From positions 55,212-119,211 of the forward strand of contig JAZNWP010000048.1 of assembly GCA_045593385.1 (NCBI GenBank): a DNA stretch of 64,000 nt, given 5' to 3'. A program made the translations under genes and the position numbers. Origin of the DNA: Acutalibacteraceae bacterium. Its GTDB lineage: Bacteria > Bacillota > Clostridia > Oscillospirales > Acutalibacteraceae. Position 1 is the first letter of the stretch. Every line of letters starts with the position of its first letter. Under the pieces are notes generated by a model, which did no database searches, was not told the origin of the DNA, and saw nothing but the letters and a program-made list of their open reading frames with translations. This document shows, piece after piece, positions 59,215 through 59,358 of the stretch.

Positions 59215-59358
59215 TGGTGAGTCGACTTGGATTCAAACCAAGATATCTAAAAAGATGCCAGATTTACTGTCTGTCTTTTAAGTTGATTGCAGAAAAAGAC
59301 TTTACCAAGTCTTTGTAAAAAACAATTCCGGTGCGTCTACCAATTCCGCCATCGACTC
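59215..59358 (-). tRNA. type II (Leu-like) tRNA with a roughly 57-nt insertion in the anticodon loop
   Basis: Acceptor GAGUCGA/UCGACUC-A-CCA, Leu-like D-arm UGGCGGAAUUGGUAGACGC, T-arm CUUGG-UUUGAAU-CCAAG, variable arm AUCUUUUUAGAU. The anticodon stem CCGGA/UCUGG encloses about 64 nt. Confidence 0.5.

What the first reader, a model, noticed from the sequence alone, without database searches (positions are those of the whole stretch)
59215..59358. Leu-like tRNA with a short (about 57-nt) anticodon-loop insertion
All four arms and a long variable arm are intact and the acceptor halves pair perfectly. The anticodon stem CCGGA/UCUGG encloses roughly 64 nt that include an internal 8-bp hairpin. This is too short for a group I intron and is in the size range of protein-spliced (eukaryal/archaeal type) introns. 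The identity of the mature anticodon is ambiguous (GUA, UGA or UUA depending on the junction).
Basis: seen in the sequence. Interest (0 to 1): 0.55.

Follow-up and report, generated by a model that had tools for sequence, protein, structure and literature searches.

The report
Phage tRNA mimic carrying Y-RNA module
A gut-phage gene that looks like a leucine tRNA with 57 extra bases in its anticodon arm is real and conserved, but the extra bases are most likely the signature module of the phage's Y-RNA-like (Ro60-partner) RNAs and not an intron, which would make it a new layout of tRNA mimic.

Summary
On the minus strand, 59358-59215 encodes a class-II, Leu-type cloverleaf with an encoded ACCA end and 64 nt between the anticodon-stem strands CCGGA and TCTGG. 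ARAGORN with introns allowed and the Rfam tRNA model (34.5 bits) both call it. Positional orthologues exist in five other phage lineages, and 10 base pairs show compensatory change. The intron reading is only partly supported. A BHB-like motif occurs in the window only, no known ribozyme matches, and a second fold gives a 7-nt loop, CAGUAAA. The insertion is an 8-bp hairpin followed by UU-CUGCAAU. The same module (stem, 1-4 nt, CNGCAAK) heads four other tRNA-derived RNAs in this array, including a YrlA-like RNA. It also interrupts tRNA-Pro and another tRNA in related phages. The window encodes a Ro60-like protein and an RNA heal-and-seal enzyme set. Best explanation (0.45): an unspliced tRNA mimic of the Y-RNA kind, a circular permutation of the YrlA layout. 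Main rival (0.25): a new small tRNA intron, because in L184 and L092 only excision restores an anticodon arm. Transcript data are needed to decide.

The parts
59215..59358 (-). Whole tRNA-shaped gene (144 nt including the encoded CCA)
   Evidence: ARAGORN -i; Rfam tRNA 34.5 bits; orthologues and covariation
59352..59358 (-). Acceptor stem 5' strand GAGTCGA; pairs with 59219-59225 (TCGACTC)
   Evidence: Perfect 7 bp; 5 of 7 pairs covary across six sequences
59333..59349 (-). Leu-type D-arm GCG-GAATTGGTAGA-CGC
   Evidence: Identical in window, L003, L036, L087 and L008; the same D-arm type occurs in ordinary phage tRNA-Leu genes
59327..59331 (-). Outer (ancestral) 5' strand of the anticodon stem, CCGGA
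   Evidence: Pairs with TCTGG (one G.U); 100% paired in all six sequences; uninterrupted phage tRNA-Leu genes read CCGGA-CTTAAAA-TCCGG
59270..59326 (-). 57-nt insertion (the module plus linkers)
   Evidence: Single copy in every locus held; homologous insertions in L003/L036/L087/L008/L184 and in other tRNA bodies, L092 and L212
59295..59314 (-). Module stem: hairpin AAAGACTT-GGTA-AAGTCTTT
   Evidence: 3 pairs with compensatory change; corresponds to the terminal stem of the array's Y-like RNAs
59286..59292 (-). Module motif CTGCAAT (family consensus CNGCAAK), 2 nt after the stem
   Evidence: GCAA is invariant in the family alignments; same position after the stem in all interrupted tRNAs and Y-like RNAs; the heptamer alone is common
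59270..59274 (-). Inner duplicate of the 5' stem strand, ACAGA
   Evidence: Pairs with TCTGG (4 bp plus A.G); double compensatory change relative to TCGGA/TCCGG in L003; absent in L184 and L092
59263..59269 (-). 7-nt anticodon-type loop CAGTAAA (A33, GUA)
   Evidence: Same loop in L008; CTGTAAA in L184; CTTAAAA in the L003 group; no uninterrupted Leu-type tRNA with this loop in IMG/VR or the GTDB genomes
59258..59262 (-). 3' strand of the anticodon stem, TCTGG
59243..59257 (-). Long variable arm C-ATCT-TTTT-AGAT-AT
   Evidence: 2 covarying pairs
59226..59242 (-). T-arm CTTGG-TTTGAAT-CCAAG (U56)
59215..59225 (-). Acceptor 3' strand TCGACTC, discriminator A73, encoded CCA
59359..59390 (-). Conserved 32-nt leader, homologous to the stretch that in relatives largely overlaps the 3' end of ROOL RNA
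   Evidence: 82-86% identity to L003 4403-4434 and the other relatives; ROOL match in L003 is 3837-4428, and ROOL is also present in L036, L087, L008 and L184; no ROOL in the window
58514..58921 (-). Adjacent PD-(D/E)XK (PF11645) endonuclease gene with an in-frame TAG read as Gln
   Evidence: orthologues sit beside the interrupted tRNA in L003, L008 and L184; absent in L087
59493..59604 (-). YrlA-like RNA carrying the same module in open form (AAGGCACA-CA-CAGCAAA ... UGUGCCUU)
   Evidence: Rfam YrlA 27.3 bits, below the gathering score; fold and conservation
38311..39849 (-). Ro60-like (TROVE + vWA; Pfam DUF2828 + DUF7788) protein, the proposed partner
   Evidence: Pfam; AF2 model pLDDT 72.9; the top 10 Foldseek PDB hits are all Ro60/Rsr, best E = 2.2e-7
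59822..59850 (-). Sigma-70-type promoter (TTGATT-17-TATAAT with TG) that probably drives the YrlA-like RNA, tRNA-Gln, the candidate, the endonuclease gene and tRNA-Tyr
   Evidence: repeated throughout related arrays

Best explanation
The gene encodes a tRNA-shaped non-coding RNA of the Y-RNA kind, not an ordinary decoder awaiting splicing. A Leu-type tRNA scaffold (acceptor stem with ACCA, D-arm, long variable arm, T-arm) carries, at the anticodon end of the L-shape, the module that defines this phage's Y-like RNAs: a stem followed after 1-4 nt by CNGCAAK. In the array's other module-bearing RNAs the module's stem is formed by the RNA's two ends and the acceptor-type helix is closed (the YrlA layout). 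Here the module stem is closed by a GGUA loop and the acceptor is open. The candidate is therefore a circular permutation of the YrlA architecture. Inferred mechanism: it is co-transcribed with its neighbours and released by RNase P and 3' processing like a tRNA. It then folds into a tRNA-like body that can toggle between two nearly isoenergetic anticodon-arm pairings. Through the module it binds the phage Ro60-like protein or another factor of the phage RNA-repair/quality-control set (RNA ligase, kinase, phosphoesterases, cREC, Thg1, MVP-like). Shown here: the fold, its conservation, the shared module, and the presence of the Ro60-like gene. Inferred: that the RNA stays unspliced, and that it binds Ro60.
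For: (1) The tRNA-like fold is under selection: 10 covarying pairs, and acceptor stems that are entirely different yet fully paired in the window, L003, L008 and L184. (2) The insertion hairpin covaries (3 pairs) and is followed by the invariant GCAA. (3) The same stem + N1-4 + CAGCAAU module heads four other RNAs in the window's array: YrlA-like 59604-59493, 60082-59950, 57714-57651 and 62030-61917. It also heads the YrlA-like RNAs of L184, L096, L036 and L003. Similarity extends beyond the heptamer: CAGCAATTCTTCT is shared by the L092 insertion, the L096 tRNA-like gene and the L213 Y-like gene, and the GTCTT...AAGAC stem is shared too. (4) Element by element, the layout of the candidate is a circular permutation of the YrlA-like fold. 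(5) Decoding features are not conserved among orthologues: loops are UAA, GUA with U33, or GUA with A33. The A33 copies carry further defects (U56 in the window, a bulged acceptor stem in L008). The L212 copy has a weak stem, and in L096 the module sits in the variable region. (6) No uninterrupted Leu-type tRNA with a CAGUAAA loop exists in IMG/VR or 185,579 genomes. The phage already has an ordinary tRNA-Tyr(GUA) and a tRNA-Leu(UAA). (7) The window encodes a Ro60-like protein beside the tRNA/ncRNA region, as L096 does. Y RNAs are tRNA mimics encoded near Ro60 in bacteria and phages and come in more than one topology (PMC4201824). Jumbo phages with TROVE proteins are expected to have a tRNA-like partner (PMC7824862).
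Against: In L184 (67-nt element) and L092 (tRNA-Pro, 44-nt element) there is no inner strand. Precise removal of the element would restore a fully canonical anticodon arm and loop (CUGUAAA; UUUGGGC with G37). That is what a real intron looks like. The outer CCGGA strand stays complementary to the 3' strand in all six sequences. The Rfam YrlA model does not hit the candidate, and the array's own YrlA-like RNA scores only 27 bits against a gathering score of 69. The heptamer alone is common: 53 in the window against about 30 expected. The distal stem sequence that is strongly conserved in the YrlA-like RNAs (AAGGCACA) is not conserved in the interrupted tRNAs. The Ro60-like model has medium confidence (pLDDT 72.9, TM 0.34-0.39). 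No transcript or binding data exist.
Confidence: 0.45

Rival explanations
1. It is a genuine small tRNA intron of a new kind. The 43-67-nt stem + CNGCAAK element sits at the 5' edge of the anticodon loop (between nt 31 and 32). It is cut out by an endonuclease that recognises the module, or by its own unrecognised catalysis. The halves are then rejoined by the phage's heal-and-seal enzymes (P-loop kinase, phosphoesterases, cREC, RNA ligase), giving a class-II tRNA with a GUA (window, L008, L184) or UAA (L003) anticodon.
For: In silico excision restores canonical tRNAs in L003 (Leu UAA), L184 (CUGUAAA) and L092 (Pro UGG, G37). L184 and L092 have no alternative hairpin. The insertion site is the same in different tRNA bodies. 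The outer stem is never broken. The tRNA fold has been conserved over a long time. The window encodes RNA ligase, an AAA_33 kinase, four metallophosphoesterases, cREC and PIN-PhoH. A second, unrelated class of 46-62-nt structured insertions in metagenomic tRNA-Leu genes shows a fixed excision geometry.
Against: No bacterial or phage tRNA-splicing endonuclease is known, and none was found in the ORFs scanned. No BHB is conserved. No ribozyme family matches. The window's product would have A33 and U56 and would duplicate an existing tRNA-Tyr. The anticodon differs among orthologues. The module also occurs where it cannot be an intron: as the terminal stems of Y-like RNAs and in the variable region of the L096 tRNA-like gene.
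Confidence: 0.25
2. The insertion is a by-product of homing-endonuclease conflict. It interrupts or alters the anticodon-arm DNA that the adjacent I-Ssp6803I-family PD-(D/E)XK endonuclease would cut, so it protects the resident copy (as in collaborative homing). The RNA has no function of its own, and the gene persists by hitch-hiking with the endonuclease gene.
For: A PF11645 gene lies about 290 nt downstream (58921-58514), and orthologues sit beside the interrupted tRNA in L003, L008 and L184. The window's array copy matches PDB 2OST at E = 1.6e-5. [quoted passage not shown] The window has three PF11645 genes next to tRNA genes. These phage lineages are rich in introns and homing-endonuclease genes (PMC12880540). 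The insertion is flanked by a 4-5-nt direct repeat (CCGGA...TCGGA in L003).
Against: Compensatory changes in the acceptor stem, variable arm and insertion hairpin show selection on the RNA. L087 keeps the insertion without the endonuclease gene. In L003 the inner hairpin rebuilds 16 of the 17 nt of the presumed target. More distant homologues of the endonuclease sit next to ordinary tRNAs. This explanation can coexist with the other two as an account of origin.
Confidence: 0.15
3. It is an archaeal/eukaryal-type (bulge-helix-bulge) intron at 37/38, removed by a splicing endonuclease.
For: A relaxed BHB can be drawn in the window: CCGGA/UCUGG, AUUG/CAGU, 3-nt bulges, 57-nt intron.
Against: It is absent at the anticodon arm in the four relatives tested. 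Three other chance BHB-like hits occur in the same sequence. The product would be UGU with U37 on a Leu body. The promoters are bacterial sigma-70 type. No tRNA_int_endo or RtcB was found in the ORFs scanned.
Confidence: 0.03
4. It is a decaying tRNA pseudogene disrupted by a random insertion.
For: A33, U56, redundancy with intact tRNA-Tyr and tRNA-Leu genes, and loss of ROOL upstream.
Against: Conservation in six or more lineages, with 10 covarying pairs and a covarying, motif-bearing insertion. The same element is present in other tRNA bodies.
Confidence: 0.05

Closest known systems
YrlA (bacterial and phage Y RNA-like tRNA mimics; Rfam RF02553; Chen et al. 2014, PMC4201824)
   Same: A tRNA-like domain (T-arm, D-arm, acceptor-type helix) joined at its anticodon end to a stem module. 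Encoded in a genome that also encodes a Ro60-type protein and RNA-repair enzymes. The phage's own YrlA-like RNAs share the stem + CAGCAAU module with the candidate.
   Different: YrlA is circularly permuted: the RNA ends lie in the Ro-binding stem and the acceptor is closed. The candidate has native tRNA ends with ACCA and a closed module. It keeps a complete anticodon-type loop and a long variable arm. The Rfam YrlA model does not hit it. Ro60 binding is untested.
Deinococcus radiodurans Yrn1
   Same: Shows that Y RNAs mimic tRNA in more than one topology (PMC4201824).
   Different: No sequence relation was tested, and Yrn1 has only partial D-loop features.
Group I intron of tRNA-Leu(UAA) (cyanobacteria, plastids, phages)
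   Same: Interrupts the anticodon loop of a Leu-type tRNA. The window's other tRNA-Leu(UAA) (42619-42945) has a 240-nt interruption at U34/A35.
   Different: 57 nt is too short for a group I core. There is no Rfam hit. The junction is at 31/32, not 34/35.
Archaeal/eukaryal BHB introns and permuted tRNA genes (e.g. Cyanidioschyzon merolae)
   Same: Small size, position in or near the anticodon loop, and coexistence of permuted and non-permuted tRNA-like genes.
   Different: No conserved BHB. The setting is bacterial. No splicing endonuclease was found.
I-Ssp6803I and the tRNA-fMet intron; collaborative homing of free-standing endonucleases
   Same: An endonuclease of the same family (PF11645; 2OST hit) sits next to a tRNA gene interrupted in its anticodon region.
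   Different: The endonuclease gene lies outside the insertion. The insertion is not a self-splicing intron. The target site is unknown.
ROOL and GOLLD RNAs with neighbouring or embedded tRNAs
   Same: In five relatives ROOL ends about 6 nt upstream of the interrupted tRNA. The literature notes that ROOL and GOLLD lie near tRNA islands (PMC12286853, PMC5737381).
   Different: The window has lost ROOL and keeps only about 30 nt of its 3' end. No functional link is shown.

Membership tests
Canonical elongator tRNA (Rfam RF00005) | Cloverleaf with a 7-bp acceptor stem, D-arm, T-arm and discriminator + CCA | tested here: met
   ARAGORN -i; Rfam 34.5 bits against a gathering score of 29; covariation
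Canonical elongator tRNA (Rfam RF00005) | Contiguous 5-bp anticodon stem closing a 7-nt loop with U33 | tested here: not met
   The outer stem encloses 64 nt. The inner 4-bp hairpin has the loop CAGUAAA with A33
Canonical elongator tRNA (Rfam RF00005) | T-loop with C56 (the G19-C56 tertiary pair) | tested here: not met
   The T-loop is TTTGAAT (U56)
Archaeal/eukaryal protein-spliced tRNA intron | Bulge-helix-bulge motif at the exon-intron junctions, conserved among homologues | tested here: not met
   A relaxed BHB occurs in the window only. It is absent at the anticodon arm in L003, L036, L087 and L008, and chance hits are frequent
Archaeal/eukaryal protein-spliced tRNA intron | A splicing endonuclease (EndA/TSEN) available in the system | tested here: inconclusive
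   None among the 39 window proteins scanned with Pfam. Only 64 kb of a 176-kb genome was seen, and the host is unknown
Group I intron | Conserved catalytic core (P3-P8), usually 200 nt or more | tested here: not met
   57 nt, with no Rfam match at E < 10
Small self-cleaving ribozymes (hammerhead, twister, pistol, hatchet, HDV-like/theta) | Match to the family covariance model | tested here: not met
   No Rfam 15 hit in 59180-59660 at E < 10 or in 56000-64000 at E < 1. Self-cleavage itself is not testable here
YrlA / Y RNA | A tRNA-like domain | tested here: met
YrlA / Y RNA | Encoded in the neighbourhood of a Ro60 (TROVE) orthologue | tested here: met
   The Ro60-like protein is at 38311-39849, at the end of the same tRNA/ncRNA region and about 19 kb away. 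Fold matches are to Rsr/Ro60. L096 has the same arrangement
YrlA / Y RNA | Stem module carrying the Ro60-binding site | tested here: inconclusive
   It shares the stem + CNGCAAK module with the phage's YrlA-like RNAs. The conserved AAGGCACA stem sequence is not shared, and the binding site has not been mapped
YrlA / Y RNA | Permuted topology (RNA ends in the stem, closed acceptor) and a score at or above the Rfam gathering threshold | tested here: not met
   Native topology with ACCA. There is no YrlA hit on the candidate, and the neighbouring YrlA-like RNA scores 27.3 against a gathering score of 69
YrlA / Y RNA | Physical association with Ro60 | not testable with these tools
   Needs RIP or EMSA
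Homing-endonuclease-associated interruption (collaborative homing) | An endonuclease gene adjacent to the interrupted gene | tested here: met
   PF11645 gene at 58921-58514, conserved next to the orthologues
Homing-endonuclease-associated interruption (collaborative homing) | The endonuclease cuts the uninterrupted allele at the insertion site | not testable with these tools
   Needs a cleavage assay

The most novel reading that the evidence does not exclude
The stem + CNGCAAK element is a new class of small (43-67 nt) mobile intervening sequence in phage tRNA genes. It would be removed by a cut-and-seal pathway built from the phage's own RNA-repair proteins (a module-recognising nuclease or the Ro60-like platform, kinase/phosphoesterase healing, RNA ligase sealing). 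That would be the first protein-dependent tRNA splicing in a bacterial system. The same machinery might circularise and mature the array's permuted tRNA-like genes.
Probability: 0.2. Interest if true: 0.9.

Novelty: new variant of a known kind. Interest (0 to 1): 0.6.

Why it matters
Y RNAs and their Ro60 partners are poorly understood in bacteria and almost unstudied in phages. This finding points to a whole set of tRNA-derived RNAs in the tRNA arrays of abundant ~135-207-kb gut phages. They share one module (stem + CNGCAAK) in several topologies: permuted, native and minimal. They lie beside ROOL RNA, a Ro60-like protein, a vault-protein homologue and a complete RNA heal-and-seal enzyme set. 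If the native-topology form is a Y-like RNA, it widens the definition of tRNA mimicry and gives a defined RNA-protein pair to test for a role in phage counter-defence against tRNA-targeting nucleases. If it is spliced instead, it would be a new kind of tRNA intron in the bacterial world. Either way these genes are invisible to standard tRNA and ncRNA annotation, so tRNA counts and codon-reassignment inferences for such phages need care. ARAGORN with introns allowed, for example, calls this gene an ochre suppressor, which the family comparison does not support.

Tried and rejected
(1) Ochre suppressor tRNA(UUA), ARAGORN's call. Rejected: junction 34/35 gives nonsense loops in the relatives, and TAA is the main stop codon. 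(2) Intrinsic terminator in the insertion. The hairpin plus U-run is seen only in the window, it is not scored by the terminator scan, and there is no U-run in L003 or L184. (3) Repeated mobile element or MITE. The insertion is single-copy in every locus held. (4) Remnant of the group I intron found in the other tRNA-Leu. I saw no similarity by eye, and Rfam gives no hit. (5) An insertion strand (GACTTGG) pairing with the T-stem 3' strand as a switch. A 7-bp complement exists in the window and the L003 group but not in L184, so I dropped it as unproven. (6) Searches that found nothing for the window's own lineage: GenBank phages by megablast and blastn; IMG/VR by DNA words and by the 54004-55257 protein; GTDB genomes; exact lookup of the 62966-63403 protein. 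Contigs anchored on glycosyltransferase homologues (L223-L227) carry no tRNAs. Contigs anchored on PF11645 homologues mostly belong to unrelated arrays, because that gene is mobile. (7) Sequence search of the Ro60-like protein and of the downstream endonuclease against the PDB gave nothing. Only the fold search and the array endonuclease copy were informative. (8) Thermodynamics cannot choose between the outer and inner pairings, which differ by 2.4 kcal/mol or less.
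Full report
WHAT IS THERE. The window is part of a phage genome of 33% G+C. A protein 100% identical to one of the window's proteins lies on a 176,152-bp NCBI contig, and relatives lie on contigs of 135-207 kb. The window holds 24 ordinary tRNA genes on the minus strand, including two tRNA(CUA) genes. TAG is read through inside several long genes, while TAA remains the main stop codon. An in-frame TAG in one gene aligns with Gln in two orthologues. The finding lies on the minus strand at 59358->59215. It reads: acceptor GAGTCGA/TCGACTC (perfect), a Leu-type D-arm (GCG-GAATTGGTAGA-CGC), A26, CCGGA, 64 nt, TCTGG, a long variable arm (ATCT-TTTT-AGAT), a T-arm (CTTGG-TTTGAAT-CCAAG), A73 and an encoded CCA. 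Default ARAGORN and the first Rfam scan miss it. The Rfam tRNA model gives 34.5 bits (gathering score 29) when the search space is small.

IT IS CONSERVED AND UNDER SELECTION. An exact-word scan of IMG/VR, a pattern scan of metagenomes and a protein-anchored scan recovered positional orthologues: L003/L010, L036, L087, L008 and L184-186. Where the flanks were read, the gene sits between tRNA-Gln and tRNA-Tyr(gta)-Thr(tgt)-Ser(tga), as in the window. On the six-sequence alignment 94.8% of cells are paired. Ten pairs changed on both sides against 4.1 +/- 1.5 in shuffles (0 of 500) and 1-2 in slid controls. Five of the seven acceptor pairs covary (GAGTCGA, GAGCCGT, GAG(U)GGAC and GGGAAAC each pair with their own partner). 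The variable arm and the insertion hairpin covary as well. So this is not a pseudogene and not a chance match.

THE INTRON READING. I tested this in four ways. (a) Junction scan. Only a junction directly after the CCGGA strand (nt 31/32, or one base later) gives a sensible loop in the relatives: CUUAAAA in L003/L036/L087, CUGUAAA in L184, CAGUAAA in the window and L008. (b) BHB scan. The window has a relaxed bulge-helix-bulge at 37/38. Three other chance BHB-like hits occur in the same 144 nt, none of the four relatives tested has one at the anticodon arm, and the product would be UGU with U37. (c) No Rfam ribozyme or intron family matches. (d) An alternative fold exists. A second copy of the 5' stem strand (ACAGA in the window, TCGGA in L003 and L008) pairs with the 3' strand to close a 7-nt loop. 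This inner helix carries the only double compensatory change of the two alternatives. The outer helix stays 100% paired through a G.U. The two conformations differ by no more than 2.4 kcal/mol in every member tested. However, L184 and the tRNA-Pro of L092 have no inner strand. There the element is a plain interruption whose precise removal would restore a canonical anticodon arm. This keeps a splicing hypothesis alive.

WHAT THE INSERTION IS. Across the family the insertion consists of a covarying hairpin (AAAGACUU-GGUA-AAGUCUUU in the window, AAGGUGUU-GGCA-AAGACCUU in L184, UAGUGUCUU-GGUCU-AAAACGCUA in L003) followed after 1-4 nt by CNGCAAK. The same element interrupts other tRNA bodies: a canonical tRNA-Pro(UGG) in L092, and a class-I tRNA in L212/L213. 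In the tRNA-like gene of L096 it sits in the variable region. It is single-copy in each locus held, so it is not a repeat. The same module also heads the YrlA-like RNAs of these phages. They all fold as a terminal stem AAGGCAC(A)/(U)GUGCCUU, single-stranded CA-CAGCAAU, a small hairpin, a T-arm, a closed acceptor hairpin (CCA in its loop in four of five), a D-arm and a linker back to the stem. In the window three further RNAs carry the module. The RNA at 60082-59950 has a stem, AUA-CAGCAAU, a hairpin, a T-arm, a closed acceptor, a Leu-type D-arm and a CUUAAAA anticodon arm. The RNA at 57714-57651 has a stem, CA-CAGCAAU and one hairpin. The RNA at 62030-61917 has a stem and UA-CAGCAAU enclosing the poorly paired 'tRNA-Asn' that lacks CCA. 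Similarity extends beyond the heptamer: CAGCAATTCTTCT and the GTCTT...AAGAC stem are shared between insertions and Y-like genes. The heptamer alone is frequent (53 in the window against about 30 expected), so the argument rests on position and context. Read from its D-arm, the candidate follows the same order of elements as the YrlA-like RNA. The difference is that the module stem is closed by a loop and the acceptor is open. It is a circular permutation of that architecture.

CONTEXT. The DUF2828/DUF7788 protein at 38311-39849 has a predicted structure (pLDDT 72.9) whose ten best PDB matches are all Ro60/Rsr over their full length (best E = 2.2e-7). L096 has the same gene at the end of its array. 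The window also encodes an RNA ligase, a P-loop kinase with an adjacent phosphoesterase, three further metallophosphoesterases, a cREC domain protein, Thg1, an RNase T-like exonuclease, PIN-PhoH and a major-vault-protein homologue. That is the RNA-repair set described for jumbo phages, in which a TROVE protein is expected to work with a tRNA-like partner (PMC7824862). Y RNAs near Ro60 genes mimic tRNA in more than one topology (PMC4201824). In five relatives ROOL RNA ends about 6 nt upstream of the interrupted tRNA. The window lacks ROOL but keeps about 30 nt homologous to its 3' end. About 290 nt downstream lies a PF11645 PD-(D/E)XK endonuclease gene (58921-58514), conserved beside the orthologues but absent in L087. 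[quoted passage not shown] A sigma-70-type promoter at 59850-59822 and the absence of terminator-like sites suggest one transcription unit: the YrlA-like RNA, tRNA-Gln, the candidate, the endonuclease gene and tRNA-Tyr.

HOW IT MOST LIKELY WORKS. Best-supported (0.45): the RNA is a Y-RNA-like tRNA mimic that stays unspliced. It is released from the polycistronic transcript by tRNA-processing enzymes and folds into a tRNA-like body. At its anticodon end it presents the stem + CNGCAAU module to the Ro60-like protein or another repair or quality-control factor. Four observations favour this over decoding. Anticodon loops differ among orthologues (UAA, GUA with U33, GUA with A33). The A33 copies carry extra defects (U56 in the window, a bulged acceptor stem in L008). 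No uninterrupted Leu-type tRNA with CAGUAAA exists in IMG/VR or in 185,579 genomes. The phage already has an ordinary tRNA-Tyr and a tRNA-Leu(UAA). Main rival (0.25): a new small tRNA intron excised at 31/32 and sealed by the phage ligase system. This is supported by L184 and L092 and by the never-broken outer stem. Third (0.15): an interruption selected for, or created by, conflict with the adjacent homing endonuclease. This may describe the origin of the element while one of the other two describes its present role. The BHB intron (0.03) and the pseudogene (0.05) are disfavoured. Shown: the sequence anatomy, conservation, covariation, the shared module, the Ro60-like fold and the gene context. 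Inferred: that the RNA is unspliced, and that it binds Ro60.

NOVELTY AND SCORE. I found no paper describing interrupted tRNAs of this kind, the module, or native-topology Y-like RNAs. The Jug-phage paper does not mention tRNAs. I rate the finding as a new variant of a known kind (tRNA-mimicking Y RNAs), with interest 0.6. There is a 0.2 chance that it is instead a categorically new tRNA-splicing system, which would deserve 0.9.

Noticed in passing
window 59493-59604 (-): YrlA-like RNA (Rfam 27.3 bits, below the gathering score). Permuted tRNA-like fold with terminal stem AAGGCACA/UGUGCCUU and CCA in the closed acceptor loop. Conserved in L184, L096, L036 and L003.
   Followed up: yes
window 59950-60082 (-), 57651-57714 (-), 61917-62030 (-): Three more structured RNAs carry the stem + CAGCAAU module. 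One is a permuted Leu-type tRNA-like RNA with an intact CUUAAAA anticodon arm. One is a small stem-plus-hairpin RNA upstream of tRNA-Thr. In the third the module stem encloses the ARAGORN 'tRNA-Asn' (61928-62001), which has poor acceptor pairing and no CCA and so may not be a real tRNA.
   Followed up: partly
window 38311-39849 (-): The DUF2828/DUF7788 protein is Ro60-like by fold (top 10 PDB hits are Rsr/Ro60). This suggests that these Pfam DUFs are TROVE + vWA relatives.
   Followed up: yes
window 30756-33245 (-) and 5742-7265 (-): Major-vault-protein homologue (MVP_shoulder, Vault_3) and an SPFH/flotillin protein encoded by a phage, alongside the Ro60-like gene.
   Followed up: no
window 7599-8666, 17878-19284, 21973-22770, 24112-26400, 29078-29458, 3536-4789 (all -): A full RNA repair and tRNA maturation set: phosphoesterase plus AAA_33 kinase, RNA ligase (PHA02142 OB + RNA_ligase), Thg1, two further metallophosphoesterases, cREC, PIN-PhoH. 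The tRNA-His gene (61190-61259) lacks an encoded G-1, which fits the presence of Thg1.
   Followed up: partly
window 42619-42945 (-): tRNA-Leu(UAA) interrupted by 240 nt between U34 and A35, the classic group I site. The 5' exon ends in U and the insert ends in G, but Rfam's group I model gives no hit.
   Followed up: partly
window 58514-58921, 62966-63403, 40869-41291 (all -): Three free-standing PF11645 (I-Ssp6803I family) endonuclease genes sit between tRNA genes. Homologues are multicopy and mobile among unrelated phage tRNA arrays, together with HNH and GIY-YIG genes.
   Followed up: partly
window, whole; codon 36 of 58514-58921: TAG is reassigned. An in-frame TAG aligns with Gln in orthologues. 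There are 8 in-frame TAGs in the 1171-aa ORF 45242-48757 and 6 in 34915-36897. Two tRNA(CUA) genes lie at 59866-59941 and 60084-60158. TAA remains the main stop codon.
   Followed up: partly
window 59822-59850 (-) and many copies in L003, L010, L092, L093, L096: A repeated ~50-70-nt element is a sigma-70 promoter with an extended -10 (TTGATT-17-TGTTATAAT). It recurs between the tRNA genes of related phages.
   Followed up: partly
window 41511-41627 (-): drum RNA (Rfam 74.8 bits) lies between a PF11645 gene and tRNA-Gly.
   Followed up: no
L003 3837-4428, L036, L087, L008, L184 1849-2474, L213 1681-2276: ROOL RNA lies directly upstream (about 6 nt) of the interrupted tRNA in five lineages. The window keeps only about 30 nt homologous to the ROOL 3' end (59359-59390).
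   Followed up: partly
L022/L042/L063/L074, L035 (10368-10500), L088 (837-970): A second, unrelated class of 46-62-nt insertions in metagenomic tRNA-Leu anticodon loops. It has a covarying closing helix, a GAAA/UAAA hairpin and a T-loop-like hairpin GG-UGCRAWU-CC. If the element is taken as the closing helix plus 4 nt (C-CNN, and CCCA in L088), all three sequence types yield a 7-nt Leu loop, although the 5' junction differs (32/33 or 34/35). There is no Rfam hit. This may be a mini-tRNA-like intron.
   Followed up: partly
L023, L033, L060, L066, L059/L070, L037/L069, L029/L080, L019/L020/L043, L038/L071, L025/L083, L068/L091: Many metagenomic tRNA-like genes have a Leu-type D-arm, T-arm, paired acceptor and ACCA, but 75-100 nt of variable sequence in place of the anticodon and variable arms. 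Their nature is unknown.
   Followed up: no
L195 44-174: tRNA-Leu(CAA) with a different 47-nt insertion (TACGTAGG...CCTACGAC, closed by an 8-bp helix) at the 5' edge of the anticodon loop.
   Followed up: no
L008/L187 and L010/L189 (IMGVR_UViG_3300032167_000002, 402,311 bp): The 402-kb contig carries two diverged copies of the whole array about 204 kb apart. One has the UAA-loop version and the other the CAGUAAA-loop version of the interrupted tRNA. It may be a dimeric assembly of two related ~200-kb genomes and not a 402-kb genome.
   Followed up: no
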